From contig HF989717.1 in assembly GCA_000431315.1 (NCBI GenBank), positions 47,925 through 111,924 on the forward strand: 64,000 nt of DNA, in the 5' to 3' direction. Source of the stretch: Brachyspira sp. CAG:484. Lineage in GTDB: Bacteria; Cyanobacteriota; Vampirovibrionia; Gastranaerophilales; Gastranaerophilaceae. This document shows positions 18,974 through 37,425 of the stretch, piece after piece; the stretch's first letter is position 1, and each line of letters opens with the position of its first letter. The position numbers were made by a program, and so were the translations under genes. The notes under the pieces are model-generated. The model searched no databases. It was not told the origin of the DNA and worked only from the letters and a program-made list of their open reading frames with translations.

Positions 18974-19125
18974 GCTTCTATGCATAAATGCAGGGAGAAC
19001 TTCCTAGGTTGTACATTATTATTATTTACTATAATTCAGTTTTTGTCAAGTGTTCAGCCGATTTTTATTGCGAATTAATAAGTTTATTCAGTAATTATTT
19101 AATCCAATAATTGAAAGATTAAATA

Positions 19126-20792: not shown

Positions 20793-20812
20793 AACAAAAT
20801 ACTACCACAAAT

Positions 20813-22277: not shown

Positions 22278-22914
22278 CGAATTTTGGCAAGAGTGGAGCG
22301 AAGCGGAACTCGCCCCTGTGAACAACCTGACGAAGCGGAGCAATTCAACAGAATTGCAAAGCGAAGTACAAAGGTTGAGAACCGCCAATAATTCAAGAAA
22401 TTTGGCACCGATTGATGATATTAATTTAAAGATTTTTGATGAAATTTGTGAAGAACGCTACGCAAAACTAAAACTGGATGTTTTAAATTTGACAAACATT
22501 GATACAATTCCGTCAGATGTTCTGCCTCATTTAGCAGAACAGTATCATATAACCGGCGATGAAGGATGGATTTTTTGTAAAACGGAAGCGGAAAAGCGTG
22601 CATTATTGAAGAATGCAATTCAATTACATAAATATCGTGGTACTAAATACGCAATTATAAGTGCACTTGAAGTTTTAGATTTGAGGGCAGATATTGCGGA
22701 GTGGTTTGAATATAACGGAGAACCATTTTTCTTTAAAGTTTTTGTAGATTTAGAAACAAGTTATGAGTCGGACTTGGAAACACGCATTGTAAACATAATC
22801 AATGCACATAAAAATGTTCGTTCATGGCTAGAAAAACTTACAATTTATCTCACACAAACAGCAGTTTTACCAATAGCAAGTTATATTTTGACAAGCGAGG
22901 AGGTTACAATATGA
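22264..22914 (+). CDS. phage tail protein I-like
   Basis: 216 aa following gpJ, overlapping start. Confidence 0.5.
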   Translation: MLMSSEFWQEWSEAELAPVNNLTKRSNSTELQSEVQRLRTANNSRNLAPIDDINLKIFDEICEERYAKLKLDVLNLTNIDTIPSDVLPHLAEQYHITGDEGWIFCKTEAEKRALLKNAIQLHKYRGTKYAIISALEVLDLRADIAEWFEYNGEPFFFKVFVDLETSYESDLETRIVNIINAHKNVRSWLEKLTIYLTQTAVLPIASYILTSEEVTI

Positions 22915-23603
22915 CTTCTTCTGTTGAGGAAATGAAGTTTAATTCAATAATTACAGATATAGGTTTTGAGAAGATAAATGCGGCTTTGATAGCCGGAACG
23001 AAATTAGACTTAAAATACATTGCTGTCGGTGATGCTTGCGGCGAATATTACGAAATGCGTCAGGATCAGACAGCATTGGTTAATGAGATTTATCGGGCAG
23101 AAACTCAGGAAGTTGACGGAGTTTCTGCAACGGCTCTAATACCGCATAATATTGGTGGATTTTATATCAGAGAAGTCGGTGTTTTTGATAGTTTAAATAA
23201 TTTAATTTTAATTGCAAGACAGCCATTAACTTATAAACCGCAGGAGGAACAGGGCGGAATTAAAGATATATGGATTAAGGTGAGATTAAAAGGGATAAAT
23301 CCCGATGCCATACAAATAAAAATTGATCCAAGCATCCAGTATGCTTCAGTAGAATTTGTAACAGATTTAATTAAAAATCATCAACACCCTGATTTAATGC
23401 CGATTTGGTTATATGACACAAACGGCAATGGAGTTGTTGATTCTTGTGAATTTGTTGATGGCGGACTATTTACGGACAAAGGAGAGATTGAAATTCCGCA
23501 GCCTCCTGTTCTTCCTGATTTGATAATGAACACAAGTATTTACGATAAAAACCAGAACGGTATTGTTGATGATGCTGAAAATATTGATGCAGGTGAATTT
23601 TAG
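22911..23603 (+). CDS. tail fiber protein, N-terminal (P2 gpH-like) domain with two EF-hand-like loops
   Basis: ITDIGFEKINAALIAG...IAVGDA...GGFYIREVGVFD matches gpH N-terminal domain; DTNGNGVVDSCE and DKNQNGIVDDAE are canonical 12-residue EF-hand loops; start at ATGA overlap with strong RBS. Confidence 0.55.
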   Translation: MTSSVEEMKFNSIITDIGFEKINAALIAGTKLDLKYIAVGDACGEYYEMRQDQTALVNEIYRAETQEVDGVSATALIPHNIGGFYIREVGVFDSLNNLILIARQPLTYKPQEEQGGIKDIWIKVRLKGINPDAIQIKIDPSIQYASVEFVTDLIKNHQHPDLMPIWLYDTNGNGVVDSCEFVDGGLFTDKGEIEIPQPPVLPDLIMNTSIYDKNQNGIVDDAENIDAGEF

Positions 23604-23623
23604 AAACAAAAGGAGATTTATTT

Positions 23624-24307
23624 ATGGGAACAATTCAGATTAAACGTGGACTTAAAGCAAATTTGCCGAGTGAAGCTCCGGCAGGTGCACTTTTATACAC
23701 AACAGATGAAAAGAAATTTTATATAGGCAACGGTGAAGGAAAAGCTCTAACGGCTTTTGATAACGCCCAACAGCTTGCGGAGTATCTTGCAACAAAATCA
23801 GATGTAGGTCATACACATACTTCAGCCAACGTAACGGATTTTGCAACAGCAGTGGATAACAGAATTGCATTACAAAGAGGACAGAATAACGGACTTGCAT
23901 CATTGGATGGTAACGGAAAAATTCCCACAACACAAATTCCTTCTGTATTTAAGGATGCTTATGTTGTAGATGATATTGCTGCACGTGATGCATTAGAAAA
24001 ATTTTCAGGTTTACATGCTCTTGTAATTGATGCAACGGCAGACGAAACCGTTGAAACTGGCGGGGCAGAATATGTTTGTGATGGTACACAGTGGATAAAA
24101 ATATCCGAATTAAAGGATTTGGATATGGTAATTGACTGGGAAAATATTCAGGGCAGACCTTTTGTTCCGCAAAATTTTACGGATTTGGCAGATTGTCCGG
24201 GGGAACTTACAGGAAATAAAGGAAAAATCCTTGTTGTAAATGAAGCTGAAGATGGGCTTGAATTTACAACAGTTTATATGGGAGATGTTGATGGAGGAAC
24301 ATTTTAA
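23624..24307 (+). CDS. tail fiber / receptor-binding protein (paralog A)
   Basis: N-terminal IQIKRGLKANLPSEAPAGALLYTTDEKKFYIGNG motif common to prophage tail fibers. Confidence 0.45.
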   Translation: MGTIQIKRGLKANLPSEAPAGALLYTTDEKKFYIGNGEGKALTAFDNAQQLAEYLATKSDVGHTHTSANVTDFATAVDNRIALQRGQNNGLASLDGNGKIPTTQIPSVFKDAYVVDDIAARDALEKFSGLHALVIDATADETVETGGAEYVCDGTQWIKISELKDLDMVIDWENIQGRPFVPQNFTDLADCPGELTGNKGKILVVNEAEDGLEFTTVYMGDVDGGTF

Positions 24308-24789
24308 TGCCGACTAATATACGAATTCGGCGTGGTAATAAAGCCGATTTACCCGCCTCTGCTCCCTCCGGTATGCCGCTTTGGTGTGAAGATACAAAAG
24401 AATTATTCATGGGGACTGGGACTTCTGTTGTTAATCCTACAACCGTAAATACTGATTTTGTAAAAAATATTGTATCACAAGTTTTAGGTCAGGGTGTTAG
24501 TTTGCAGGGAAACGGATATCTTAAAATTCCTGTTACCAGTGGTAAATCAGTTATTATTCAATGGGGATGTGCAACAGGTTTTGGCATGGGGACATCTAGA
24601 GATATTTACTTCCCTATTGCATTTCCTACAACCTGTGGAGCACTTGCAATAGCAGCCGGATATTATCAGGGAGCAGGTAATAAAGGTTCAACCGCTCAAG
24701 TTTACAGAGTTGCGGCTAACAGATTCCATATTACCAGTAGATTTGAACAGGGAAGTGCAAATATAGACTGGATTGCCATTGGTTGGTAA
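24307..24789 (+). CDS. tail fiber / receptor-binding protein (paralog B) with gp53-like C-terminal domain
   Basis: Same N-terminal motif (IRIRRGNKADLPASAPSGMPLW...); C-terminal IIQWGCATGFGMG...IAFPTTC pattern. Confidence 0.45.
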   Translation: MPTNIRIRRGNKADLPASAPSGMPLWCEDTKELFMGTGTSVVNPTTVNTDFVKNIVSQVLGQGVSLQGNGYLKIPVTSGKSVIIQWGCATGFGMGTSRDIYFPIAFPTTCGALAIAAGYYQGAGNKGSTAQVYRVAANRFHITSRFEQGSANIDWIAIGW

Positions 24790-24802
24790 TGAAAGGAGTT
24801 TT

Positions 24803-25240
24803 ATGAAATATTTCGGATTTAAAGAAAATGTAGGCTACGGGTTTTATGACGAAAATTTTGACGGAGCAATTCAACTATCCGATGAGGAATGGCAAACCCT
24901 TTTAACTGAACAATCAGCCGGAAAAGATATTGTAATGTTTGGCGGTGAAGTTTTTGCCTCTGAGCCAAATTTGTATTATTTAGACTCAAACGGAGTTTAC
25001 CAAAAATATTCAAGTGAAGAGTTACAGGAACTTGCAGAAATAAATCAGGTTGTAACAACAACTAATACCGCACTTAATTTTTTAAATGATACGGATTGGA
25101 AAGTAACACGACACAGGGATCAGCAGGCTCAAGGAATAGAAACATCATTGACGGAAGAAGAGTATCAACAGTTGCTTGTTGACCGTCAAAATGCAAGAGA
25201 TTCAGTAATAAGAGGAGAAAAATATGGCAACCTTGAATAA
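24803..25240 (+). CDS. tail fiber assembly chaperone-like protein
   Basis: C-terminal DTDWKVTRHRDQQAQGIETSLTEEEYQQLLVDRQNARDSV resembles Caudo_TAP family; start at MKYFGF with AAAGGAG RBS. Confidence 0.45.
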   Translation: MKYFGFKENVGYGFYDENFDGAIQLSDEEWQTLLTEQSAGKDIVMFGGEVFASEPNLYYLDSNGVYQKYSSEELQELAEINQVVTTTNTALNFLNDTDWKVTRHRDQQAQGIETSLTEEEYQQLLVDRQNARDSVIRGEKYGNLE

Positions 25241-25781
25241 AATTTGCCTGCACTGGACAGCAGGTTCTAATTATCCCTGTAAGGATGATTTGGCAGCATA
25301 CCATTATTGCGTGGATAAATACGGCAGAATTTATGCAGGAAAACATAAGCCTGAAGATAACCTGAACTGCTATGATGGTAATTATGCAATGCACTGCGGA
25401 GGCGGAAATACCGGCTGTATCGGTTTGTCTGTCTGCGGAATGGCTGGTTTTACGACAGATAAAAAACAGACAAAATATCCGCTTACTCAAAAACAGATTG
25501 AATCATTATGCTGCCTTGCAGGGTATTTATCTGTAAAATACGGAATTTTAATTACTGACAAACTGGTATTTACCCATTATGAGTTCGACCAAAGACGAGC
25601 CAAAAACAAACGTGAAGGCAAGATAGATATTACTTATCTTCACTACTTGCCGCATTTATCCCCGAATAGTGTCGGTAAATATCTCAGACAAAAAATATCC
25701 TGGTACAGAACCAAGATAAAAACCAACAAATACAAGTTTATTAAGAAAGGAGACTACTATGAGTTTATTCTCGTGGCTTAA
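25224..25781 (+). CDS. N-acetylmuramoyl-L-alanine amidase (Amidase_2 / PGRP-like endolysin)
   Basis: ICLHWTAGSNY...YHYCVDKYGRIY...MHCGGGNTGCIGLSVCG typical of amidase_2 zinc amidase. Confidence 0.65.
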   Translation: MATLNKICLHWTAGSNYPCKDDLAAYHYCVDKYGRIYAGKHKPEDNLNCYDGNYAMHCGGGNTGCIGLSVCGMAGFTTDKKQTKYPLTQKQIESLCCLAGYLSVKYGILITDKLVFTHYEFDQRRAKNKREGKIDITYLHYLPHLSPNSVGKYLRQKISWYRTKIKTNKYKFIKKGDYYEFILVA

Positions 25782-26049
25782 AGACTGGAAAGTCTTGAAT
25801 GAACTGTGGGATGCCATTGAACCTTTTGTAATTAATCTTGCGGAAAAGAATGTTCCCAAGTATATTACAAAACTCTATGAAAATCTCGCAAAAGTGACAC
25901 AGCCGGCTCTTGGCAGTTTGAAAAAACTGAAAGAAAAGATTAAAACTTCTCCGAATGCTCTGGACGATTATTGTTTTAATCAGGGTGTGAACGCTATTGA
26001 AACATTTGCCAATCACCTTTTGACCGTAGTTGCGGATTTGAGGAAATAA
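25759..26049 (+). CDS. hypothetical protein
   Basis: ORF only. Confidence 0.25.
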   Translation: MSLFSWLKDWKVLNELWDAIEPFVINLAEKNVPKYITKLYENLAKVTQPALGSLKKLKEKIKTSPNALDDYCFNQGVNAIETFANHLLTVVADLRK

Positions 26050-26053
26050 GCAG

Positions 26054-26296
26054 ATGTGGTTTTCTGCAATAATTAAATCTTTATGTGACTGTATCTCGCA
26101 AATTGCGAGGTACGGTCAGACAAAGATTGAAAATCAGGAGGCATCCTCAATTATTCAGGACAAGGAAGATTTGGAAAAAGCCGGCAATTATGCAGAGCAG
26201 ATTATTGAAATTGCTCAGAAGTATAAATCTTCAATGTCTAAAAAGGATCAGCGAAAACTGAAATCATTAATTAAAAAATTTAATAAGGTGGATTGA
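26054..26296 (+). CDS. hypothetical protein
   Basis: ORF only. Confidence 0.25.
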   Translation: MWFSAIIKSLCDCISQIARYGQTKIENQEASSIIQDKEDLEKAGNYAEQIIEIAQKYKSSMSKKDQRKLKSLIKKFNKVD

Positions 26297-26922
26297 ATAT
26301 GTCTTGGAGAGATTTATTAAACGTACAAAATGTTGAAAAAGGTTTCTTTGCTTCCTCCAATTCCTATGGCATACCCGATATTATTCCGGATGAGTTTGAT
26401 GTAAAAGAGCTCATCCCTTATCGGGTAGATTCCAACAGAAACGGAACGGCACACTTTTTCTTAGATGATTACAGGTTTGAGAGATGTTGGAAAAATGCCG
26501 ATTCTCAAATAGAAGAGTTGAAAAAATATGAAGGAGTTTTATCTCCGGATTTTTCAATGTACACAAATTACCCTGAAGCATTCCAAATTTGGCAGGTTTA
26601 CAGAAACCGCTGGTGTGCCGCTTACTGGCAAAGCAAAGGAATAAAAGTTATTCCAACAATCAGTTGGTCTGATGAAGCCAGTTATAAATATGCATTCTTG
26701 GGTATTCCTAAAAATTCTGTTGTTGCAATCGGTACAGTCGGAGTTGTTAATAACAAAAACGCAGAAAGACTCTTTATGCAGGGCTTTAAAGAAATGTTAA
26801 AACAACTTGAACCCAAGCGTATTTTGATTTACGGAAACAGACTGACCGAACTTGAGGGATACAAAAATCTTCAATGGTTCGAACCTTACACAAATAAATG
26901 GAATAAAAAGAAAGGCAGGTAA
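26293..26922 (+). CDS. DUF4417-like protein
   Basis: GTAHFFLDDYRFERCW motif resembles DUF4417. Confidence 0.4.
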   Translation: MNMSWRDLLNVQNVEKGFFASSNSYGIPDIIPDEFDVKELIPYRVDSNRNGTAHFFLDDYRFERCWKNADSQIEELKKYEGVLSPDFSMYTNYPEAFQIWQVYRNRWCAAYWQSKGIKVIPTISWSDEASYKYAFLGIPKNSVVAIGTVGVVNNKNAERLFMQGFKEMLKQLEPKRILIYGNRLTELEGYKNLQWFEPYTNKWNKKKGR

Positions 26923-26924
26923 AA

Positions 26925-27566
26925 ATGGGCGGTCGAGGATCCGGAGGAAGTAAAAATGGAGGCGGTGCTGCCTCAAGAAATATCGGAGAAGGTATAACAG
27001 ATAAAGACGAGCTTATTAGATTGTATAACAGCATTTCGGGAAATCCCGCTTATACAACTGAAGAAAGAGTACGAGCCATGGAGTCTATCAAAAAAAGAAT
27101 TGATGAACTTGATGCTAAAAAAGCCGCAGATTTAAAACAAAAACGTCTTGATGCTTTAGCCAAGGCTCGTGCTAAACGTGCGGAAAACCTCAAAAACGGT
27201 GTTAAAACAGAAAAGAAACCTCGTGCTAAAAAGGCAAAAATGTCTATGGACAGCACAGTTTCTAATTTGAAAGATGAATTAATAAATAAAGTTTCAACTG
27301 ATGGATACATTCGCCGAAGTGACTTTAGAGTTGAAGATTATGGAGATTTCATAAATGTTTCGGTTCGAAGTCTTGGCAAATGGAAAAATCCTTCTGATGC
27401 AAGAGATGAGGAAGATTATGATTGGCAAGTTCTGCATAAATCAAGTCGTTCTCAAATCGATAAAGTAGTTAAACGAATATCCAGACAATCCGGCAGAAAA
27501 CTTTCTTGGTCGCAAGAAGAGAAAAATTGGATTGGTGTAGATATTCCAAAAATGAAAGGAGATTAA
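26925..27566 (+). CDS. hypothetical protein with Gly-rich N-terminus (paralog 1)
   Basis: Starts MGGRGSGGSKNGGG, followed by basic helical region. Confidence 0.3.
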   Translation: MGGRGSGGSKNGGGAASRNIGEGITDKDELIRLYNSISGNPAYTTEERVRAMESIKKRIDELDAKKAADLKQKRLDALAKARAKRAENLKNGVKTEKKPRAKKAKMSMDSTVSNLKDELINKVSTDGYIRRSDFRVEDYGDFINVSVRSLGKWKNPSDARDEEDYDWQVLHKSSRSQIDKVVKRISRQSGRKLSWSQEEKNWIGVDIPKMKGD

Positions 27567-27569
27567 TAT

Positions 27570-27974
27570 ATGGGAGGACGTGGCTCAGGTGGAAGTCGTG
27601 GCGGTGGTGGAGGTAGTGCCAACACATCTTTAAAAAATCTATTAAATACATATGAGAATGATAATGACACATTTAGACAAAAATTTATGGATAAATACCA
27701 TGCAATGTCAGATGAAGAATTAAACAAAGCATACCGAACGACTCAAAATCAAATGAATCGTGCCAGAAGAAAATATGATTCCGAATTAGAAAAGTTTAAT
27801 TCAATTAGAAAAACATTTGCAGAAACACCCGAAAATGATAAGAATTTTCCTAAAATATCTGCTGAATTTGATAACCAAATAGCAATAGTCCAAAATGCAC
27901 GATTGCACTCTAATATGCGTTCACAAATTCACTATATTGCATTAAATGAGAAAAGAAATATTCGGAAGCAGTAA
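27570..27974 (+). CDS. hypothetical protein with Gly-rich N-terminus (paralog 2)
   Basis: Starts MGGRGSGGSRGGGGG; adjacent paralog of previous. Confidence 0.3.
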   Translation: MGGRGSGGSRGGGGGSANTSLKNLLNTYENDNDTFRQKFMDKYHAMSDEELNKAYRTTQNQMNRARRKYDSELEKFNSIRKTFAETPENDKNFPKISAEFDNQIAIVQNARLHSNMRSQIHYIALNEKRNIRKQ

Positions 27975-28068
27975 TTGTGTCTGAATGATACGGAATTGGG
28001 AGCAATGACTTCCAATTCTTTCTCTTCAGAGCGATGAATGTGGTTGTTAATAAATAAAGGAGGTCAAT
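27975..28068 (+). repeat. conserved intergenic element, copy 1 of 4 (stop-to-start)
   Basis: TTGTGTCTGAATGATACGG...AATGACTT...TTCAGAGCGATGAATGTG...AAGGAGG, then ATG. Confidence 0.7.
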
Positions 28069-28881
28069 ATGACAGAAACAATCACAGCAACTGAAGTTTT
28101 AAAAAGCAAACAAAACTTCTCAGATTACATTGAACAAAATGCAGATACGGTAATCAAAAATTTACTAAAAGATTATCCGCCTCGACCGTTACAAATTATT
28201 TATCCGCAACTTACACAAAGTTCAGAAGGATTAATTGAAATTGTAAATCAACTATATGGAAAACAAAAAACGTATATCTTCTGGTTTATTGTGAATGAAA
28301 AAGAAAACTTACAAGAAACCGCTTTAAAGTTAAATTTTTATTTTGATAAAAATTACTGCGGTATATTTATTATTAAAGCAGTTTTGAACGAGGATAAAAT
28401 AGAATTTGAACCCGTTTTGAAACCCGAACTCGTTGTTAAGCAAAAACGAGAAGTAAATACAAATACACCATCAAAACAGTTACAAAAGAAATATTGGGAC
28501 AAATATATTGAACTTTGTGATGCAAGCGAATACCCCGAAATGCAAATAAGCGAGGCTTTACCGAGACATTATCAATATATCTCAATAGGAAAAGCCGGCA
28601 TTCAAATTTTACAAACGATCAATACCGCTAAAAATTATGTTGCATCTGAGATTGCAATCAATAACAATAAGTCAATTTATGAATTTTTCTTTGACTTAAA
28701 AGATAAGATAGAGGAAGAAGTCGGAAAGTTGGAGTGGTATTGTAAAGAGAACAACAAGTCCGCAAAAATAAGAAAAGTCTTTGAAATTGACGTCAATAAT
28801 CCGGAAAACCACGAAAAAGCAATATTAGAACAAGTAAAAATGGGGGCAGAGTTGAAAGCCATCGTTTATAAATATCTATAA
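28069..28881 (+). CDS. hypothetical protein (possible DUF4268-like C-terminus)
   Basis: 270 aa ORF preceded by repeat element; followed by terminator. Confidence 0.3.
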   Translation: MTETITATEVLKSKQNFSDYIEQNADTVIKNLLKDYPPRPLQIIYPQLTQSSEGLIEIVNQLYGKQKTYIFWFIVNEKENLQETALKLNFYFDKNYCGIFIIKAVLNEDKIEFEPVLKPELVVKQKREVNTNTPSKQLQKKYWDKYIELCDASEYPEMQISEALPRHYQYISIGKAGIQILQTINTAKNYVASEIAINNNKSIYEFFFDLKDKIEEEVGKLEWYCKENNKSAKIRKVFEIDVNNPENHEKAILEQVKMGAELKAIVYKYL

Positions 28882-28883
28882 CT

Positions 28884-28910
28884 AAGGGGGAGATATTCTC
28901 CCCCTTTATA
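28884..28910 (+). terminator. rho-independent terminator
   Basis: AAGGGGGAGATATTCTCCCCCTTT hairpin plus T-run. Confidence 0.6.
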
Positions 28911-28964
28911 AATAACCCCAATCGGGTAATAGACACATGAATAATAAAGGAATAGGATTGAACT

Positions 28965-29219
28965 ATGGCACAAAAAATTATTGTAAAAAACAAAAGAACT
29001 CGTGAACTCTTGGAATTACCCCTGCCGGAATTTAAGGAAAAGTTTAAAGCCGAATTAAAAACGGCTCTTGATAATTTTGAAAAGCAAGAAAGCCGGAAAA
29101 ATTTTCTGCCACTTTATGTTAGACCAAACAATAATTTTGAATCCGATTTTTACTTCAGCTTACGTTGGAATTTCAATAATTTGCAAAACTCGAACTGGTA
29201 TATTGAACGCATCCTTTAA
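28965..29219 (+). CDS. hypothetical small protein
   Basis: 84 aa ORF; followed exactly by repeat copy 2. Confidence 0.3.
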   Translation: MAQKIIVKNKRTRELLELPLPEFKEKFKAELKTALDNFEKQESRKNFLPLYVRPNNNFESDFYFSLRWNFNNLQNSNWYIERIL

Positions 29220-29320
29220 TTAATGTGTCTGAATGATACGAAATGTCTGCAATGACTTCACTTTTGCCCTGCCAAGAGTGATGAATGTCAATGTAGAACA
29301 AAACATAAGGAGACAAAATT
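29220..29320 (+). repeat. conserved intergenic element, copy 2 of 4
   Basis: TAATTAATGTGTCTGAATGATACGAAAT...CAATGACTT...GAGTGATGAATGTCAATGTAGA...AAGGAGACAAAATT, then ATG. Confidence 0.7.
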
Positions 29321-29524
29321 ATGAACAGTAGACAACTGGAAAATTATTTTATTGACAAATTGTATGAGGATGAAGACATAAGTTATGTCGATACTTTTGA
29401 CAATTGTGGTCTTTTAACAAGAAATCAAGGGGTCGTTATCAAATTTAAAAATGGGGATGAGTTCCAAGTTACGATTGTAGAATCTCAATCTGGCAATGGC
29501 TTGGATGAGGAGGATGATTTTTAA
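29321..29524 (+). CDS. hypothetical small protein
   Basis: 67 aa ORF between repeat copies. Confidence 0.3.
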   Translation: MNSRQLENYFIDKLYEDEDISYVDTFDNCGLLTRNQGVVIKFKNGDEFQVTIVESQSGNGLDEEDDF

Positions 29525-29632
29525 ATCTATAAACATTGTGTCTGAATGATACGAAATGCACACAATGACTTGAGAAACGGACTATTCAGAGCGATTAATA
29601 TCAATGTAGACAAGCAAAGAAAGGATTAAATT
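29525..29632 (+). repeat. conserved intergenic element, copy 3 of 4
   Basis: ...TGTGTCTGAATGATACGAAATG...CAATGACTT...ATTCAGAGCGATTAATATCAATGTAGA... Confidence 0.7.
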
Positions 29633-29884
29633 ATGAAACAGACAACTTATAATATCAAATTTTCCGCAAGGGTAAATATTAGCGGAGATCTTCAAGTAAA
29701 AGCGGCAAGTGAAACCGAAGCACAAAAAATTGCAAGACTTATATTAAGACAAAATCTTAACAGTGAGGACTGCCTTATTGAAATAGGAGAAGACGATAAT
29801 AGCAATAACATTACAGTAAGAGAAATGACGCTGTTACCAAATATAACTGCTCTTGATATTCAAGATGCTATGCCACTTGATTAA
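29633..29884 (+). CDS. hypothetical small protein
   Basis: 83 aa ORF between repeat copies. Confidence 0.3.
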   Translation: MKQTTYNIKFSARVNISGDLQVKAASETEAQKIARLILRQNLNSEDCLIEIGEDDNSNNITVREMTLLPNITALDIQDAMPLD

Positions 29885-29981
29885 TGTGTCCGAATGATAC
29901 GAAACACCTGTAATGACTTGATGTATAGACTATTCAGAGTGATTAATGTCAATGTAGATAAGCAAAAGAAAGGACAAAATT
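29885..29981 (+). repeat. conserved intergenic element, copy 4 of 4
   Basis: TGTGTCCGAATGATACGAAAC...TAATGACTT...ATTCAGAGTGATTAATGTCAATGTAGA...AAGGACAAAATT, then ATG. Confidence 0.7.
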
Positions 29982-30497
29982 ATGGCAAAGAAAATTTTAA
30001 AAACGCAAAACAAAGAATGGGGGTTCTGGGGAACAACCGCACAACATTATACCAACAAAGAAACTCAACAGAGATGGAACGATGCTTTTGAAACCCTGCT
30101 TGAATTATCAGGAGCAAAACCCGAACAGGTTAGAGAATTATTAGATGCAAGAATCGGGAGACACTTCGCAGACCAGTGTTTTGGAGAAAAAGACGTTAAA
30201 CAAATTACAAAAGAATGTTATTTTAACTGGCTCGCAAAAGAATTATTTGATGATGCAAATTCTAAAAAGCCATTAGAAACAGAAAAGAATTCAGTTTTAT
30301 TCGGAACTAATGTTTATAACACCATTTATGACAGAGTCGATGTTGTATTATACACTTACAAAAATAAAAACAGAATCCACGAGGATTACGCTTTATGTAT
30401 AACTAAAGACCTTAAAAAATACAGAGTCGGAATGGATTACATTAAACCGATTGATGATATGGATGAGGAAGAATTATGCAAAGCCGGATTGGCTTAA
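29982..30497 (+). CDS. hypothetical protein
   Basis: 171 aa ORF after repeat copy 4; followed by terminator. Confidence 0.35.
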   Translation: MAKKILKTQNKEWGFWGTTAQHYTNKETQQRWNDAFETLLELSGAKPEQVRELLDARIGRHFADQCFGEKDVKQITKECYFNWLAKELFDDANSKKPLETEKNSVLFGTNVYNTIYDRVDVVLYTYKNKNRIHEDYALCITKDLKKYRVGMDYIKPIDDMDEEELCKAGLA

Positions 30498-30517: not shown

Positions 30518-30545
30518 AACGCTATATTTTATAGCGTTTTACTTT
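30518..30545. terminator. rho-independent terminator between convergent gene blocks
   Basis: AACGCTATATTTTATAGCGTT hairpin plus T-run. Confidence 0.55.
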
Positions 30546-30816
30546 TCCCAACATATTCCAAATACCGATTATAACAATTATAAAATACATTTTCTTCATC
30601 AATAAAATTAGACGTCACAAGAGCTTCCCGCATTACATTTACCGGCATTGAATAATAATCACTCGGATAATTTCCCAGTCTTATGATAAGAGAGCCGGAT
30701 TCTGATATCGAATGTTTAACGCAAAAATAATAATCTCTGATTTCATCAGAACCTAAATATATGCAATCTTCGCAATCGTGTTGATATAAAGGTTTTTGTT
30801 TTTCTAATACCGGCAT
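30529..30816 (-). CDS. hypothetical Cys-containing protein
   Basis: 95 aa ORF, last gene of minus-strand early block. Confidence 0.3.
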   Translation of the reverse strand: MPVLEKQKPLYQHDCEDCIYLGSDEIRDYYFCVKHSISESGSLIIRLGNYPSDYYSMPVNVMREALVTSNFIDEENVFYNCYNRYLEYVGKSKTL

Positions 30817-30900
30817 GTTATCCCCTCATGTAAAATAAATTATACAAGAAAAACTCTAATGTTTAAACATTAGAGTAAAGAAGTGATGTTTAAAGATTCA

Positions 30901-31212
30901 CTATTTATCCGGCTTTGGCAAGTTGTGCTTTTTGTGGAGGTTCTTTTTTATAATTTTATAAATATATCTTTGAGATAAATCACATTCGATTGCGAGGCGG
31001 TTTACGGTATATTTTCTGCCGTCATACTGGCTCATGATATACTTTTCTTTTATTTCACGAAACGGATTTTTCGGAATACTTACTGTTAATCCCGGTGAGC
31101 AGAAAATAAGAGCCAAGGCGGATTTTATGCCGGCAGATTCTGCGATGAACTTTAAGTCATCGTTCGGCATATCTTCAGGTTTTATCAAGTCCATCCAAGG
31201 CTTGTAATCCAT
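30901..31212 (-). CDS. Mor-like transcriptional activator (Mu middle operon regulator family)
   Basis: C-terminal HTH NRLAIECDLSQRYIYKIIKK and central Gly-rich region as in Mor/C family; 103 aa. Confidence 0.5.
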   Translation of the reverse strand: MDYKPWMDLIKPEDMPNDDLKFIAESAGIKSALALIFCSPGLTVSIPKNPFREIKEKYIMSQYDGRKYTVNRLAIECDLSQRYIYKIIKKNLHKKHNLPKPDK

Positions 31213-31351
31213 AATCTCCTCTTATTTTGTGGTCTCATCAGTTAACGCATTACGTTAAGACGGTCAGCTTGGCGGATTGCCGGCAGAGGGTGCAAGCGTT
31301 AGCGATACCCGTTTAATGCCGGCAACCAAGAGTTAGTCGACCGTTTCGACC

Positions 31352-31630
31352 TTATTGTGCTAATGTTGTGGAGTAAGCATTTTCAATATCATTTCGAGAT
31401 TGTGTTAATGCGGTTAAAAGATTTTCATTAACATTTACTTCTCTAAGATATTGCGGCATTTTATCTATATCCTCAACGTATGGGAGCATATCTTTCGGGC
31501 TTTTAATATTTCTAATATCCATATCCATTGTTCGTATAACTACATCTGCAATATTAACTTTTGTCTGAGTAATTTTTTGTTGGATATCTACAATCCGTTG
31601 ATCCAAAACTGCTGTTGCTTTGTTTTCCAT
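31352..31630 (-). CDS. hypothetical protein
   Basis: 92 aa ORF with AAAGGAGACAAAA RBS. Confidence 0.3.
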   Translation of the reverse strand: MENKATAVLDQRIVDIQQKITQTKVNIADVVIRTMDMDIRNIKSPKDMLPYVEDIDKMPQYLREVNVNENLLTALTQSRNDIENAYSTTLAQ

Positions 31631-31729
31631 TTTTGTCTCCTTTACTTTTAATTGGTCTCATCAGTTAGAGCCTTACTCTAAGACGAGCCGCTTGATTTAT
31701 CAGCAGCTCGTTTCGACCTCGTGTAAACC

Positions 31730-32053
31730 TTAGTCGGGAAGCATTTTTGCGGGGGTAAGCATATCTTCTAAGTCTCGTTCGATCTTGGATAAGATGAAGA
31801 TTTGTCCTTCAAGAACCTTGCAATCAATTTCACGTTCTTTGGCACAACTCCAGTTATCTTTAACCAGATTTGCATCAGCAAATTTTAATTTTGCATCGTT
31901 CAAACGATCTTCAAGGTCAATTTTTTGATTCCTGATTAACCCCATCATTGCAGATTCTTTTGGATCATCAGAACTGTGAGAGACTTCTCCAAAAAATTGG
32001 TTTTTCATCATTGAACCCATTGAATCGGTTGTTTTTTCTGCTGTTAGCATCAT
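31730..32053 (-). CDS. hypothetical protein
   Basis: 107 aa ORF. Confidence 0.3.
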   Translation of the reverse strand: MMLTAEKTTDSMGSMMKNQFFGEVSHSSDDPKESAMMGLIRNQKIDLEDRLNDAKLKFADANLVKDNWSCAKEREIDCKVLEGQIFILSKIERDLEDMLTPAKMLPD

Positions 32054-32080
32054 TTTTTTCTCCTTTACTTTTCTCTTCTA

Positions 32081-32533
32081 CTACTCAAGTGTGGCCGCAC
32101 TTTTTTCTTTTAATTTCTTTTTTATTGCCGTTATTGCCTGAATAACTTTACAGGCTTTAGCTCTGGTCAAAAACATAATGTCATCGACCTTAAATTTTGA
32201 TTTTAAAAACTTTCGCAGGGATTTTTTCGCAAATTTATCATCATTGAAATAGCAGACATCTCTCCACAAACCCTCAATCATTCTGAGTTGTGCATCTGAT
32301 GCCATATTTTCTGTGCGATTCAAATCTGCATATTTTTTCGGCTGTTTAATCCATTTGTTTATAGCAACAGCTTTATCTTCAAGGATATCTACAAAAATTG
32401 ACGCTTCCGTAAATGTCAAATCCTTTGATGATGTAACATCAAAAGACATAAGCATTTCACGATATAAGTCGTCATCCATACCTATAACATTTTTTAATGC
32501 ATGAATTTTTCTAATCTGAAAAGTCGTAGCCAT
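32081..32533 (-). CDS. GemA-like protein (Mu gp16 / DUF1018)
   Basis: IRKIHALKNVIGMDDDLYREMLMSFDVTSSKDLTFTEASIFVDILE matches DUF1018 N-terminal region; located downstream of B-like gene as in Mu. Confidence 0.5.
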   Translation of the reverse strand: MATTFQIRKIHALKNVIGMDDDLYREMLMSFDVTSSKDLTFTEASIFVDILEDKAVAINKWIKQPKKYADLNRTENMASDAQLRMIEGLWRDVCYFNDDKFAKKSLRKFLKSKFKVDDIMFLTRAKACKVIQAITAIKKKLKEKSAATLE

Positions 32534-32687
32534 ACTTTATCCTCATATCCTCAAGCTGTAACTCACGTCCGTGCTTGATTCCGATTTGTACTCCCAAAAT
32601 AAAAATGGCTAAGGCGATAATAAAAATGTGTAACAATGTGTCGGGTCGGAATAACTTACCATTATTGTTTTTCATTACCGTTCCTCC

Positions 32688-33566
32688 TCAAGCCATTAAT
32701 AATTTGGAAGTTTGTTTAATCACAGCAGCATCGACCTCAGCCTTACCGTTGAATTTAGCAATGCTGATGCTGTGAGAAATTAAGTGTTCTAATCTTCTTG
32801 TGTTTCCATCCGAATACTGAAGATACGTTTCAGCAAGTTTTGTATTCTGACCGATAGACTCAAGAATTTTTATGACGTCTTGAATCAAAATTTTGTCTAT
32901 AATTTTTGTAAATTTAACTCTTGAATAAAGTTGGTCATACTGATTATTGTAGCCTTTCAGATTTTCAAGCAAAATTCCTCTGCCAACTAAAAGAATACCT
33001 ACACCTGCTTTATCATGGATCCGGCGGGTAATTTCTAAGGCTCTATATGGAAGATTTTCAGCCTCATCGATAATTAAAAGTCTGCCGGATTGGTTTAATT
33101 TTCTTACAACTTCATCCATCAAGTCATAAACCGAACCCTTACCGGAAAGTCCTAAACGTCTGTGGATTTCCTTGAGAAGTGATTTTGCGGTGTAACCTGA
33201 ATCGCTTTCAATAAGAAGGGAATCCATAAATTCTTTTATATATCTTTTTACGGCAACGGTTTTACCGAGTCCGGCTTTACCGACACAAACGCCGATTTTA
33301 CCCTGAGTATGACAAAGTCTGCCGATTTCAGTAATATATTTAACCGTTGAAATATCTACAAAAGGCAAGTCACTGTTGCCGGTACGTTCTCTTTCCCTTT
33401 GAATAAAATTATTCATTGCATCGGTGATTTTATCATTCTTACCGTTATAATTGCCGTTCAACCACATACTGATTGTAGATTTAGCCAGACCTGTTGCAGT
33501 AGAAACATAGGCAATACTGTAGTTTTTGGTTTCCATTAAATCTCGCAATTCAGTCCTAATATCCAT
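32688..33566 (-). CDS. DNA transposition ATPase (MuB-like, AAA+)
   Basis: N-terminal HTH, Walker A GKAGLGKT, Walker B LLIIDEAENL; immediately downstream of transposase. Confidence 0.65.
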   Translation of the reverse strand: MDIRTELRDLMETKNYSIAYVSTATGLAKSTISMWLNGNYNGKNDKITDAMNNFIQRERERTGNSDLPFVDISTVKYITEIGRLCHTQGKIGVCVGKAGLGKTVAVKRYIKEFMDSLLIESDSGYTAKSLLKEIHRRLGLSGKGSVYDLMDEVVRKLNQSGRLLIIDEAENLPYRALEITRRIHDKAGVGILLVGRGILLENLKGYNNQYDQLYSRVKFTKIIDKILIQDVIKILESIGQNTKLAETYLQYSDGNTRRLEHLISHSISIAKFNGKAEVDAAVIKQTSKLLMA

Positions 33567-35499
33567 TTGCTACTCCTTTTAATTCTTGTTCGAGGATTTT
33601 ATCCGTTTCATATAAATAGAGCGGCTTATCCTCCGGCTTAGTTTCGTCAATGAACATTGACAGATCATATTTTCCAAAAGATTCCATCTCTTTATTTTTA
33701 CGAATCGCTTTGTCCATATTAGTGTTGGCAATTCTTGAAACTTTCGGTTTTGCCTCTTTTTCTACGCTGGCATATGCCGCTTTATAATTTGCACATTTTT
33801 CTTCAATGCTAATTTCACGAGTTTGTTTAATATATGATTTTGCAATCTTCAAACTGCGTTTTTTAATAGACATTGCTTCTTTAAATGCCTCTTTTGAAAC
33901 TTCATCTGCATGTAATGCGGCAACAGCTTTGACAGCTGTCGCTTTGCCCACAAAGGCATTGTTATCGGCTCTAAATACCCACGCAATTTTGTAATTCTGA
34001 ATATCCCGGCGGAGATAGACTTTTAATCCTGTATGGGATATCATCCAATCAGCCCAGTAAGTAATACCTAATTGATTATCTTTAATACCATTTCTTCTAA
34101 TAGTGTAATCTTTAGAAGTTCTGGTGCAGAATAATTTCAAAGCATCACTGCTTACTGTAATTTTTTCTTTAAATTCCTGATTAAATAACTCATCAGGAGA
34201 TAAACCTTTAAGGTTCTTACCCTGCGAGGAACGTTTGTTGAGAACATTAATCACAAAATCATCAAAAACTTCCTTAAACTCATTAAACGGAATAATTTTA
34301 CCGGCTTTAATTTCTTTTGCTAATTTTTCAGGACGTTCAACAACATTTCCGCCTCTATAACCTACACAGTGTTTTGATAAAAGTTCTTTTATCTTTAAGA
34401 AATCTCTTTCTATAGGTTTTGTTTGTGCATTATATGGTAATGCAAAATTTGCCCTGATATTTAATTCAGAAAGCATACATGTTGTTTCAAATTGGTCTGC
34501 TTCAATTTTAAATTTACGACCGCCGGCAAAGTCTTTTGAACGATAATCTTTACCGTTATCAATAATCACATCTTTTGGCAGTCCGTATTGCTCGGCAGCA
34601 TAATAAAAAGATTGAAATATATGGTCAGAATTAGGATGCCCGCATTGCAGAATCCAACCGAGCCATTTCCCTGATTTATAATCTCGCCAAGCTGTAACCC
34701 AAGGAAATACAACGTTGCCGTCTTGAGTAAGACAGGCAACGTCAATTTGAGCGTGGTCTGAAACCCACACTTCACCGCAAATTACAGAAGAGTAATCTCT
34801 ATCAATGTAATTGCCGTATTTCCTATTCCAAGCGGATTCCCCATATCTCGCTAAATAAATACTTTGCTCAGGAATTTCACGCTCCAAACGTCTTTTAAAA
34901 GTTGCGTGACAAGGAAATTCATATCTACTAATTCCATATTCACGCATTGCATATCCTAGGGTTTGCTCCCAACAACTCCGCAGGGATGGCGCACCCTCAA
35001 CTAAATAAAGATTTTTAAAATATTCAAAATAACAATCTTCAATTATTGATCTGCCTGAATTATTACCATATTTTGATAGCAAACCATTTATTCCACTAGT
35101 AAAGTATCTATTTCTCATTCTAATTAAGGAAGAATAAGATGTTTGGTTATCAGGATTATTTTTATTCCAATTTTCGATGAACAGTTTTAAGGCTCTGCCT
35201 TTCAAACAAAGACTTTTTTTGATAACATCTATGTATCTGTCTGCCTGAATTCGTGACCATAAAGGGGCTTCAGAATATTTTTTATTATCAGATTCGTTGT
35301 CAACTTTTTTTGATATAGGTAAAGATGAATAACGAATAAAAATTTGTTTTATATTATCTTTTACTTCAATTTTATAAATAAAATCACCTTTGTAGCAGCG
35401 ATTTTTGATTGTCTTTTCTTTGACATTCAAAAGGTTACACGCTTCTTGAATTGAAATCCAAGTCGGAATATTTGATTTTACTTGCTTGATTTCATTCAT
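33556..35499 (-). CDS. Mu-type DDE transposase (MuA-like)
   Basis: N-terminal HTH; catalytic VWVSDHAQIDV (D), IIDNGKDYRS (D), PYNAQTKPIERDF (E) in rve-like core; 647 aa. Confidence 0.7.
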   Translation of the reverse strand: MNEIKQVKSNIPTWISIQEACNLLNVKEKTIKNRCYKGDFIYKIEVKDNIKQIFIRYSSLPISKKVDNESDNKKYSEAPLWSRIQADRYIDVIKKSLCLKGRALKLFIENWNKNNPDNQTSYSSLIRMRNRYFTSGINGLLSKYGNNSGRSIIEDCYFEYFKNLYLVEGAPSLRSCWEQTLGYAMREYGISRYEFPCHATFKRRLEREIPEQSIYLARYGESAWNRKYGNYIDRDYSSVICGEVWVSDHAQIDVACLTQDGNVVFPWVTAWRDYKSGKWLGWILQCGHPNSDHIFQSFYYAAEQYGLPKDVIIDNGKDYRSKDFAGGRKFKIEADQFETTCMLSELNIRANFALPYNAQTKPIERDFLKIKELLSKHCVGYRGGNVVERPEKLAKEIKAGKIIPFNEFKEVFDDFVINVLNKRSSQGKNLKGLSPDELFNQEFKEKITVSSDALKLFCTRTSKDYTIRRNGIKDNQLGITYWADWMISHTGLKVYLRRDIQNYKIAWVFRADNNAFVGKATAVKAVAALHADEVSKEAFKEAMSIKKRSLKIAKSYIKQTREISIEEKCANYKAAYASVEKEAKPKVSRIANTNMDKAIRKNKEMESFGKYDLSMFIDETKPEDKPLYLYETDKILEQELKGVANGY

Positions 35500-35716
35500 T
35501 AATTGTGTAATCCTTTACTTTTATTCCGAAAATCTTTTCAATAATGTAAATGTCAATTTCCGGACAACCTCTCTCCCCAGTCAAATAGCGGCTTACTACA
35601 CTTTTGGATATATGCAAATCCATCTGAATTTCTTTTGATTTAAGCTCCAAAAGAGAAAAAATTATTTTAGTTAAAACTAGTTTTTTGCAATAAACACAAT
35701 CTGACATATTTTTCAA
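35492..35716 (-). CDS. Ner-like small HTH DNA-binding regulator
   Basis: 74 aa with HTH (LHISKSVVSRYLTGERG), directly upstream of transposase as ner is in Mu. Confidence 0.4.
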   Translation of the reverse strand: MKNMSDCVYCKKLVLTKIIFSLLELKSKEIQMDLHISKSVVSRYLTGERGCPEIDIYIIEKIFGIKVKDYTINE

Positions 35717-35736
35717 TCCTCTCTTGATATAGTTAG

Positions 35737-35760
35737 TTGTCCTATATCAAGCTGTATAAG
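35737..35760. promoter_or_regulatory. palindromic operator-like site upstream of Ner-like/transposase operon
   Basis: CTTGATATAG ttagttgtc CTATATCAAG inverted repeat. Confidence 0.35.
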
Positions 35761-36053
35761 ATTTTTAAAATTTTTCTATAAGCCGACTGTCCAGTATTTT
35801 TGCACAGCAGAATAATGCCTAATAAGGCAATATGACTGGCTCTACCGGGAAATCTTTAACCTATAACTAAATTATATTTAAATTACTTTTATATGGAAGA
35901 GGTGGAAATTCAGCAGCGGGGAATATTCCCCGACTTTTAAAAGTAATAAACAGTAATAACAATAAAAGAAAAAATTAGAAAATTTTTAATATTTACTTTT
36001 AAAGCAGACAACAAAAAGGATAAGGACTATTTAAAAAATCGGGGAAAAGTTTA

Positions 36054-37422: not shown

Positions 37423-37425
37423 AGA

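What the first reader, a model, noticed from the sequence alone, without database searches (positions are those of the whole stretch)
27975..29981. Array of small accessory genes each preceded by the same ~100 bp stop-to-start intergenic element (4 copies)
Four copies of a conserved element (TGTGTCTGAATGATACGAAAT-N-AATGACTT-N-ATTCAGAGCGATTAATGTCAATGTAGA-N-AAGGAnnnAAATT) fill exactly the space between the stop codon of one gene and the ATG of the next, ahead of the 270, 67, 83 and 171 aa ORFs. Each carries an internal CTGAAT/ATTCAG inverted motif and a conserved RBS context. Such cassette-like units, each with its own promoter/leader, are reminiscent of integron cassettes (but without attC cores or IntI) and of anti-defence gene islands in transposable phages. 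The small proteins are therefore candidates for counter-defence or regulatory functions, and the repeat itself may be a promoter/operator for a common regulator.
Basis: seen in the sequence. Interest (0 to 1): 0.65.

Follow-up and report, generated by a model that had tools for sequence, protein, structure and literature searches.

The report
Repeated portable promoter units in prophage
Four copies of a ~95-base element sit in front of small accessory genes of a Mu-like prophage of a gut Melainabacterium; they are most likely portable promoter-plus-regulator-site units that let such genes be switched on together and swapped between phages, much like the "PeSL" cassettes known from T4-like phages.

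Summary
Four co-oriented copies of a ~95-nt element (27974-28068, 29222-29320, 29535-29632, 29883-29981) each run from the stop codon of one ORF to the ATG of the next. There is no other copy in the 64 kb.

The host is a Candidatus Gastranaerophilales (Melainabacteria) genome carrying a Mu-like prophage. The same element occurs in over 200 distinct copies in related viral contigs and MAGs, in arrays of up to 7, ahead of at least 31 unrelated small-gene families.

Anatomy:
- a nearly invariant 20-nt block, TGTGTCYGAATGATACRAAA
- a -35-like GACTTGA box
- a GATKAAT box at rigid spacing (57/58 nt, or one helical turn more)
- an A-rich leader with a Shine-Dalgarno sequence

No conserved RNA pairing exists, and the CTGAAT/ATTCAG motif is not conserved. 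Some copies directly follow intrinsic terminators. Others lie in a divergent regulator/transposase intergenic region, or precede non-coding RNA-like genes. Cassette gains and losses between phages break inside the element.

Best reading (about 0.75): a portable promoter with an upstream regulator site, sometimes with a stem-loop, analogous to T4-type PeSL cassettes. It is not integron-like. The cargo is mostly of unknown function; one gene resembles a candidate defence gene. This is a new variant of a known kind, of moderate interest.

The parts
27974..28068 (+). Element copy 1. The 5' block is at 27976-27995. A hairpin, GGAATTGG...CCAATTCT, spans 27992-28019 and encloses the GACTTCC box. The GATGAAT box is at 28033-28039, followed by the SD AAGGAGG. 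It precedes the 270-aa ORF.
28069..28881 (+). Cargo 1: a 270-aa protein with a C-terminal DUF4268 domain. It is the first cassette of nearly all arrays (cluster C1, 47 loci).
   Evidence: Pfam DUF4268, E=1e-13. PHROG 27742, unknown function. PADLOC PDC-S11, E=1.5e-17. Clustering.
28886..28904 (+). GC-rich hairpin GGGGGAGATATTCTCCCCC followed by TTTAT. It looks like a terminator and closes the first cassette. The 84-aa ORF that follows has a different upstream region.
28965..29219 (+). 84-aa ORF without the element upstream (PHROG 34337, unknown function). Its stop codon abuts element copy 2.
29222..29320 (+). Element copy 2. The 5' block is at 29224-29243, the GACTTCA box at about 29255-29261, and the GATGAAT box at 29280-29286. 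A local hairpin pairs CACTTTTG with CAAGAGTG. It precedes the 67-aa ORF. Related phages diverge at 29258, inside this copy.
29321..29524 (+). Cargo: a 67-aa acidic protein with no family match. The whole unit 29259-29536 is absent from relatives L026 and L087.
29535..29632 (+). Element copy 3. The 5' block is at 29537-29556, TTGAGA at 29570-29575, and the GATTAAT box at 29593-29599. No stable hairpin is predicted (z = +2.1). It precedes the 83-aa ORF.
29633..29884 (+). Cargo: an 83-aa protein with no family match (cluster C5, 11 loci).
29883..29981 (+). Element copy 4. The 5' block is at 29885-29904, TTGATG at 29918-29923, and the GATTAAT box at 29941-29947. It precedes the 171-aa ORF.
29982..30497 (+). 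Cargo: a 171-aa protein (PHROG 8020, unknown function; cluster C2, 27 loci). It is the last cassette of the array.
30518..30538 (+). Terminator-like hairpin AACGCTATA...TATAGCGTT followed by a T run. It closes the array, which converges here with the early operon on the - strand.
30901..31212 (-). Mor-family activator gene, the last conserved early gene. It flanks the array in 28 related loci, 25 of them with main-type arrays. It is context only, not shown to act on the element.

Best explanation
Each element is most likely a portable transcription-initiation module that works at the DNA level.

**Proposed layout**, numbered from the first T of TGTGTC:
- Positions 1-20 are a nearly invariant block holding the imperfect dyad GTGTC-N5-GATAC. 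I read this as the binding site of a shared, still unidentified regulator, centred about 61 bp upstream of the predicted start.
- Positions 31-39 are a -35-like box, GACTTGA. Weaker variants are GACTTCC and GACTTTA.
- Positions 57-64 are a -10-like box, GATKAAT(G).
- Transcription would start near position 70, in CAATGTARA.
- A 20-30-nt A-rich leader with a Shine-Dalgarno sequence follows.

**Optional hairpin.** About 40% of copies also carry a stem-loop of variable sequence and register around the -35 box. It may attenuate read-through from the upstream cassette.

**Consequences for the phage.**
- Every accessory gene in the array gets its own start site under one common control.
- Because the module is repeated, homologous recombination between copies inserts, deletes and swaps cassettes between related phages.

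**Shown:**
- the repeats and their distribution
- the rigid, phased spacing
- the lack of conserved RNA structure
- the genomic contexts
- the recombination break points

**Inferred:**
- promoter activity
- the position of the start site
- the existence, identity and sign of the regulator
For: 1. **No upstream transcript in some copies.**
   - In about 12 loci the element lies in a divergent intergenic region. On one side is the start of an opposite-strand Cro/Ner-like HTH gene. On the other is a TnsB/MuA-like transposase gene whose ATG follows the GATKAAT box by only 6-9 nt, with no Shine-Dalgarno sequence.
   - 23 of 202 unique copies start directly after an intrinsic-terminator-like hairpin plus T run.
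2. **It also precedes genes that are not protein-coding.** The same block and boxes precede ncRNA-like genes, and in three loci they precede antisense sequence rather than an ORF.
3. **Spacing is rigid and phased.** The distance from block to GATKAAT box is 56-58 nt in 168 copies and 65-68 nt in 20 copies, with almost nothing between. That difference is one helical turn.
4. **No RNA structure is conserved.**
   - RNAalifold on 38 diverse copies predicts only an invariant 6-bp hairpin, with 0 compensatory pairs.
   - Mutual information shows no paired columns.
   - Only 39% of copies fold better than shuffles at z < -2, and the two strands score alike.
   - Changes within the block are not compensated.
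5. **The -35-like context recurs in a canonical promoter.** The divergent regulator gene has TTGATG-16-TAAAAT in the same 'GACTTGATG' context.
6. **Cassette indels break inside the element.** The break points between related phages fall at 27612|27972, at 29258, and at the 29259-29536 unit indel.
7. **The cargo is diverse.** At least 31 unrelated families follow the same module.
8. **A characterised precedent exists.** T4-type PeSLs have the same stop-codon-to-start-codon layout and stem-loops in variable positions, and their promoter and terminator activity has been shown experimentally (PMC2839356).
Against: - There are no transcript data, so promoter activity is not shown.
- The GATKAAT box is not a consensus sigma-70 -10 element. 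In the register that fits the spacing (ATTAAT) it lacks the -11 A. The strict consensus scan did not call these sites.
- Only about half of the copies have TTG in the -35-like box.
- The phage's own early and late promoter regions (35720-36050 and 12070-12340) lack the 20-nt block. No regulator can therefore be assigned.
- The block could form a small RNA hairpin containing a G-U pair. The commonest variant, C6 to U, would keep that pair.
- The neighbourhood is rich in ribozymes, so an RNA-level role is not excluded.
Confidence: 0.75

Rival explanations
1. The element is an intercistronic RNA element that acts on a polycistronic mRNA. It could be a processing site for a host or phage RNase, a new self-cleaving ribozyme, or an operator for a translational regulator. 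In each case it would uncouple the cistrons.
For: - It fills stop-to-SD gaps exactly as the two type II hammerhead ribozymes do in the early operon of the same phage (31231-31351 and 31654-31718, - strand).
- Self-cleaving ribozymes are known to cluster near Mu-like phage genes and near one another (PMC10085705).
- 115 of 153 copies abut the stop codon of a co-directional ORF.
- The 5' block can form a 6-bp hairpin with a G-U pair.
Against: - There are no compensatory base changes anywhere in 132 unique copies.
- Most copies do not fold better than shuffled sequence.
- No Rfam family matches, even at E <= 10.
- Copies occur directly after terminators and in a divergent promoter region, where no upstream transcript would carry them.
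- Spacing variants differ by about 10 bp, which is a property of the DNA helix.
Confidence: 0.1
2. The element is a site for a dedicated recombination system, an integron-attC-like or homing-type site. A phage protein, for example the always-first DUF4268 protein, would cut or recombine it to capture cassettes.
For: - Cassette boundaries coincide with the element, and indels of exactly one unit occur between relatives.
- A variable hairpin is flanked by conserved blocks in about 40% of copies.
- A DUF4268 gene is the constant first cassette.
Against: - No tyrosine or serine recombinase lies in or next to the array.
- There are no attC-type inverse-core and core sequences, and the conserved blocks are not inverted repeats of each other.
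- The hairpin is absent from most copies.
- Break points lie at different places within the element, as expected for homologous recombination.
- The element also occurs singly, as the upstream region of a transposase operon and of ncRNA-like genes.
Confidence: 0.05
3. The 5' block is a transposase (MuA/TnsB-type) binding site. The element would then be a solo transposon end or a MITE-like derivative scattered by transposition.
For: - The block begins with TG and contains ACGAAA. From my own memory, not checked with the tools, this resembles phage Mu end sites.
- It lies just upstream of a TnsB/MuA-like transposase gene in about 12 loci.
- It shares 12 of 18 aligned bases, after the shared leading TGT and one gap, with TGTTGTCTGCTTTAAAAGTAAAT near 36010 (- strand). 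I aligned these by eye. The position of the phage end there is unverified.
Against: - In those loci the block is internal, between divergent genes, not at a terminus.
- Copies are never in inverted pairs. They are always co-oriented with the downstream gene and always joined to the same -35/-10-like boxes and leader.
- The transposon end in the window uses a different repeat, ATGGTGYGATTATTTYRGGCAA.
Confidence: 0.05

Closest known systems
PeSL (promoter-early stem-loop) regulatory cassettes of T4-type phages (Arbiol et al. 2010, PMC2839356; Comeau et al. 2014, PMC4122927)
   Same: - Both are composite intergenic motifs running from the stop codon of one gene to the SD and start codon of the next.
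- Both are repeated many times in a hyperplastic region full of small ORFans.
- Both carry stem-loops at variable positions relative to the -35 and -10 boxes.
- In both, indels and replacements between close relatives break inside the motif, giving modular shuffling.
   Different: - The host phage here is a temperate Mu-like transposable phage of Melainabacteria, not a lytic T4-like myovirus.
- The upstream part is a 20-nt nearly invariant block with dyad character, not an AT-rich stretch.
- The -10-like box is non-consensus.
- The stem-loop is present in only about 40% of copies and lacks the G/C tracts.
- The same module also heads a transposase operon and ncRNA-like genes in other mobile elements.
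- Promoter and terminator activity is untested here.
Morons of temperate phages (Hendrix and colleagues; cited from my own knowledge)
   Same: - Both are extra genes with their own promoter, placed at the end of a late operon.
- In both the cargo is not needed for phage growth and may be defence-related.
   Different: - Classical morons are single units, each with its own unrelated promoter and terminator.
- Here a single conserved promoter module is reused for every unit, and most units in the window have no terminator between them.
Anti-CRISPR (acr-aca) loci of Pseudomonas Mu-like phages (cited from my own knowledge)
   Same: - Both are variable accessory islands at a fixed position in Mu-like phages.
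- Both have a strong promoter carrying a repeat that serves as the site of a repressor.
   Different: - acr loci have one promoter per operon and an HTH aca gene inside the locus.
- Here there is one promoter-like module per gene, and no HTH gene was found in the array.
- None of the cargo matches a known anti-defence family.
Integron gene cassettes (attC/IntI)
   Same: Both are arrays of promoter-proximal small genes separated by a repeated element with conserved ends and a variable, partly palindromic middle.
   Different: - There is no integrase and there are no attC cores.
- The element lies upstream of each gene and carries that gene's expression signals. Integron cassettes are usually promoterless.
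- Exchange is compatible with homologous recombination.

Membership tests
PeSL-type composite promoter/stem-loop cassette | An intergenic motif that spans from the upstream stop codon to the downstream SD and start codon, repeated in a hyperplastic region of ORFans. | tested here: met
   - All four window copies show this layout.
- 115 of 153 unique copies abut a co-directional stop codon.
- There are 31 cargo clusters, mostly of unknown function.
PeSL-type composite promoter/stem-loop cassette | Contains a sigma-70 consensus promoter (-35 and -10). | tested here: inconclusive
   - A -35-like TTGAnn lies 17-18 nt upstream of GATKAAT in about half of the copies.
- The -10-like box is non-consensus.
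- The strict scan does not call it.
- The genomic contexts argue for promoter function.
PeSL-type composite promoter/stem-loop cassette | A stable stem-loop at a variable position within the motif. | tested here: inconclusive
   - 39% of 132 copies fold at z < -2, at variable register around the -35 box.
- The remainder have no significant hairpin.
PeSL-type composite promoter/stem-loop cassette | Indels and replacements between close relatives have their break points in the motifs. | tested here: met
   Break points fall at 27972 and 29258, and relatives L026 and L087 differ by the unit indel 29259-29536.
PeSL-type composite promoter/stem-loop cassette | Experimentally shown promoter and terminator activity. 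| not testable with these tools
   Needs reporter fusions or transcription start site mapping.
Integron cassette array | attC sites with an inverse core RYYYAAC and a core GTTRRRY, and paired R/L boxes. | tested here: not met
   - Neither core is present at the element ends.
- The 5' and 3' blocks are not inverted repeats of each other.
Integron cassette array | An adjacent IntI tyrosine recombinase with attI and Pc. | tested here: not met
   Pfam scans of 20 ORFs between 25224 and 41047 found no recombinase. The rest of the window was not scanned.
Known structured RNA / self-cleaving ribozyme (Rfam 15) | A match to a covariance model, or conserved covarying helices. | tested here: not met
   - No Rfam hit at the gathering score, and none relevant at E <= 10.
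- There are 0 compensatory pairs.
acr-aca type anti-defence operon of Mu-like phages | An HTH repressor gene (aca) within the locus and known Acr families among the cargo. | tested here: not met
   No HTH or Acr family was found among the window cargo or the 15 cluster representatives scanned. Sequence searches could miss distant Acr proteins.
Mor/C-dependent middle or late promoter of Mu | An activator dyad centred near -43.5, overlapping a missing -35, and presence at the phage's other middle and late operons. | tested here: not met
   - The conserved block is centred near -61.
- The element is absent from the divergent late promoter region 12070-12340.
- Binding itself is not testable here.

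The most novel reading that the evidence does not exclude
The element may not be, or may not only be, a promoter. It could be a new class of intercistronic RNA device in ribozyme-rich Mu-like phages. On this reading the invariant 20-nt block and the GAGYGATKAATGU block form a catalytic or protein-recognised core. That core would cleave or process the polycistronic message at every cassette boundary. Its stems would be too short or too variable for covariation to show.
Probability: 0.07. Interest if true: 0.8.

Novelty: new variant of a known kind. Interest (0 to 1): 0.4.

Why it matters
- **Generality of the PeSL principle.** If the reading is right, the same evolutionary solution has arisen in two very different phage groups. 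That solution is one reusable promoter module that both expresses accessory genes and serves as the homology for shuffling them. It was described for lytic T4-like phages and appears here in temperate transposable phages of an uncultured, non-photosynthetic cyanobacterial lineage.
- **A handle on regulation.** The 20-nt invariant block is shared by phage accessory arrays, a transposase operon and ncRNA-like genes of other mobile elements in the same hosts. This points to a common regulator, and so to a first testable regulatory signal in Melainabacteria.
- **A practical marker.** The block can be used to harvest the accessory gene pool of these phages from metagenomes. That pool may include defence or counter-defence genes.

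Tried and rejected
- **Structured RNA or ribozyme.**
  - Rfam gave nothing relevant at the gathering score or at E <= 10.
  - RNAalifold, mutual information and pair counts showed no covariation.
  - Folding z-scores showed a hairpin in only a subset of copies, with both strands scoring alike.
- **Canonical sigma-70 promoter.** The strict consensus scan did not call the elements.
- **tRNA or tmRNA downstream of the 'group X' copies.** ARAGORN and Rfam found none.
- **Relatives among deposited phages.** Neither blastn nor tblastn against INPHARED gave a match.
- **Cargo function.**
  - Pfam, PHROGs, PADLOC and PDB sequence searches gave only DUF4268/PDC-S11 and DUF7698. Everything else was unknown families.
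  - I ran no further search on the cargo, because they would not decide what the element is.
- **A second Mor or Ner paralogue in the window as candidate regulator.** None was found.
- **Similarity of the element to the phage's own late divergent promoter region (12070-12340) or early region (35720-36050).** None was found.
- **Prophage ends by inverted 13-mers.** Nothing was found, so the ends remain undefined.
- **Host global-regulator boxes (LexA, Fur, CRP/NtcA, IHF).** I compared these from memory. None fits in register, and I make no claim.
Full report
**1. The observation**

Four co-oriented copies of an element about 95 nt long lie at 27974-28068, 29222-29320, 29535-29632 and 29883-29981 on the + strand. 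The 20-mer TGTGTCTGAATGATACGAAA matches 4 times with at most 1 mismatch, against 0.01 expected from shuffles. A profile built from the copies finds nothing else in the 64 kb.

Each copy begins at or just after the stop codon of the preceding ORF. Each ends at the ATG of the 270-, 67-, 83- or 171-aa ORF, with an AAGGAG-type ribosome-binding site. The 84-aa ORF at 28965-29219 is the exception. It follows a GC-rich hairpin (28886-28904) and has a different upstream region.

**2. Context**

The window carries a Mu-like prophage. Pfam finds these genes on the - strand:

| Gene | Coordinates |
|---|---|
| MuA-type transposase | 33556-35499 |
| MuB-like ATPase | 32688-33566 |
| GemA | 32081-32533 |
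| Mor-family activator | 30901-31212 |

The array is the distal end of the + strand tail/lysis operon. It lies after an amidase, a DUF4417 protein and two glycine-rich proteins. It converges on the early operon at a terminator-like hairpin, 30518-30538.

A genome-collection scan with the 5' block places the element overwhelmingly in Candidatus Gastranaerophilales / Melainabacteria MAGs and in contigs probably mis-binned from them. Locus L080 is 94-97% identical to the window. No deposited phage is similar.

**3. The family**

An exact-pattern scan of IMG/VR gave 15 loci, and the genome scan gave 120 stretches, which was its cap. nhmmer finds 232 copies in 111 of the 136 sources held, including the window. 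They form same-strand arrays of up to 7. There are 134 unique strong copies and 202 unique copies when weaker ones are included.

Consensus anatomy, numbered from the T of TGTGTC:

| Positions | Feature |
|---|---|
| 1-20 | TGTGTCYGAATGATACRAAA, about 2 bits per position except 7, 8, 17 and 18 |
| 21-27 | variable |
| 28-36 | AAATGACTT followed by GA, CC, TA or CA |
| 37-48 | variable |
| 49-56 | (ATT)CAGAG |
| 57-66 | YGATKAATGT |
| 70-73 | TGTA |
| beyond 73 | A-rich leader, SD, ATG |

**4. RNA or DNA?**

I looked hard for RNA structure, because the conserved-block and variable-block pattern resembles a ribozyme or riboswitch.
- Rfam gives nothing at the gathering score, and nothing relevant at E <= 10.
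- RNAalifold on 38 maximally diverse copies predicts only a 6-bp hairpin inside the invariant block, with a covariation term of -0.17 and no compensatory pair.
- Mutual information over 132 copies shows no paired columns.
- Variants of the block are not compensated. G2 to A and C16 to A break the putative pair, and there are no double changes.
- The central region folds better than shuffles (z < -2) in 39% of copies. The median z is -0.96, and the reverse complement scores alike.

So stem-loops exist in a subset of copies, at variable register around the GACTTGA box. They are not a conserved feature of the family.

**5. Evidence for a promoter**

*(a) Spacing.* The distance from block to GATKAAT box is 56-58 nt in 168 copies and 65-68 nt in 20 copies, with almost none between. 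A one-helical-turn step is a DNA-geometry constraint.

*(b) A divergent region.* In 'group Y' loci such as L030 the element lies between two divergent genes.
- On one side is the start of an opposite-strand 91-aa Cro/Ner-like HTH gene.
- On the other is a 682-aa TnsB/MuA-like transposase. Its ATG follows the box by 6-9 nt, with no SD.
- No co-directional transcript can enter from upstream, and a leaderless or near-leaderless message needs a start site inside the element.
- The regulator's own promoter reads TTGATG-16-TAAAAT in the same GACTTGATG context.

*(c) Terminators.* 23 of 202 copies begin directly after a terminator-like hairpin plus T run, for example GAGTTGGGGTATTAAATCTCAACTC-TTTTTTAA-TGTGTC.

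*(d) Non-coding targets.* 'Group X' copies precede an ncRNA-like unit with a covarying T-arm-like hairpin. Three main-type copies run into antisense sequence rather than an ORF.

These four observations together favour a transcription-initiation module. It would have a -35-like box at about 34-39, a -10-like box at about 57-63, and a start near position 70. The 20-nt block would be centred near -61, where a class-I-type activator or an upstream operator would sit.

There are caveats. The -10-like box is non-consensus, the strict scan does not call it, and there are no transcript data.

**6. Cassette dynamics**

Close relatives of the window diverge at element boundaries:
- L008 and L061 are about 95% identical to the window up to 29258, 34 nt into copy 2. 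They then carry a different gene.
- L026 and L087 lack exactly the unit 29259-29536, with one hybrid element in its place.
- Many relatives break at 27612|27972.

The array sits at a fixed position, between the glycine-rich proteins and mor, in dozens of loci.

Downstream ORFs fall into 31 clusters. The constant first gene is a DUF4268 protein that matches PADLOC candidate defence family PDC-S11. One family is DUF7698. The rest are unknown or ORFan.

**7. Comparison with known systems**

The closest analogue is the PeSL cassette of T4-type phages. It is a composite motif from stop codon to SD and start codon. It has a sigma-70-like promoter plus a stem-loop at variable position, is concentrated in hyperplastic regions, and mediates modular shuffling (PMC2839356, PMC4122927).

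The differences here are:
- a temperate Mu-like host phage
- an invariant 20-nt upstream block instead of an AT-rich stretch
- a non-consensus -10 box
- the stem-loop present in only a minority of copies
- use of the same module for a transposase operon and for ncRNA-like genes

The integron analogy fails on attC cores and on the integrase. Mor/C-type promoters differ in where the activator site lies, and the element is absent from the phage's late promoter region.

**8. Regulator**

The regulator is unknown. The Ner-like protein of the window phage (35492-35716) shares its HTH region with the divergent regulator of the group Y loci, at 30% identity and pairwise E = 4e-5. That makes this family a candidate, but the window phage's own early region lacks the block. 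A host factor is equally possible.

**9. Verdict**

This is a new variant of a known kind. Interest is moderate at 0.4. The residual novel reading, an RNA-level processing device in a ribozyme-rich phage, keeps about 7% probability.

Noticed in passing
window 31231-31351 (-) and 31654-31718 (-): Two type II hammerhead ribozyme candidates fill the stop-to-SD gaps upstream of the mor-like gene and of the 92-aa ORF. They read GGUC-GAAA-stem III-GUC|-stem I-CUGAUGA-GACC. The first has a large stem III insertion of about 70 nt. A strict pattern finds 36 such motifs in 26 sources against 0 in shuffles, with compensatory changes in all three stems. Rfam did not report them even at E <= 1.
   Followed up: partly
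window 36054-39870 (-), tRNA 40079-40151 (-): - A second transposition module lies directly upstream of the Mu-like ner/A/B genes, on the same strand. It comprises a TnsB-like transposase with rve and Mu-transpos_C domains (662 aa from its ATG at 39414), a TniB-like ATPase and a 229-aa protein.
- Three repeats of ATGGTGYGATTATTTYRGGCAA (about 39640-39860) interrupt an epimerase-like ORF downstream of a tRNA.
- The adjacency of the 229-aa gene to ner is conserved at about 70% identity in other loci. The two modules may therefore belong to one element with two transposase/ATPase pairs.
   Followed up: partly
loci L065, L094, L095, L096, L102, L126, L044, L075, L135, L074, L049 ('group X'): - Here the same 20-nt block and promoter-like boxes precede an ncRNA-like unit of about 100 nt.
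- The unit has a covarying 8-bp hairpin with a T-loop-like loop: GTCGAGAG-TTCCAAT-CTCTCGAC, or GTTAGGAG-TCCGAGT-CTTCTAAC.
- It is followed by repeats of GTATCAGGGATTTTGACATAAAGTATCGCAAGTTTGACAT...AGTCGGAAG.
- In L096 these units occur in tandem.
- ARAGORN and Rfam find nothing.
   Followed up: partly
loci L033, L019, L120 (downstream of the element): A GC-rich, structured-looking leader of about 95 nt (GCGTAAGCCGGTGCGAAGCACTACGATAGCGACGTAGGA...) is inserted between the GATKAAT box and the SD of the transposase gene. It was not analysed.
   Followed up: no
loci L070 (1670-), L088 (2651+), L079 (6045+): The element is followed not by an SD and ORF but by the antisense strand of the hammerhead stem III insertion region (GGATTGTCGGCAGAGGGTGCAAGCG...). 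This may be an antisense transcript against the early operon just upstream of mor.
   Followed up: no
window 26925-27566 and 27570-27974 (+): Two adjacent ORFs share a glycine-rich N-terminus (MGGRGSGGS...). Relatives keep the N-terminal part and diverge from 27612 to the start of element copy 1, so the C-terminal two thirds of the 134-aa protein is itself a swapped module.
   Followed up: no
window 28069-28881 (+): The constant first cassette protein has an unknown N-terminal domain plus DUF4268. It matches PADLOC phage-defence-candidate family PDC-S11 (E = 1.5e-17). The array may therefore carry prophage-encoded defence rather than, or as well as, counter-defence.
   Followed up: partly
window 12070-12830 and 12829-30497 versus 30529-35716: The genome order differs from that of Mu. 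The tail/lysis/accessory block (+ strand) converges on the early operon (- strand), and it diverges from the head genes (- strand, 517-12070) at a 270-nt region.
   Followed up: no
window 35723-35751: A perfect 10-bp inverted repeat, CTTGATATAG-N9-CTATATCAAG, lies immediately upstream of the SD of the Ner-like gene. On the - strand, a CTTCCA-17-TATAAT promoter-like site lies about 110 nt upstream of it.
   Followed up: no
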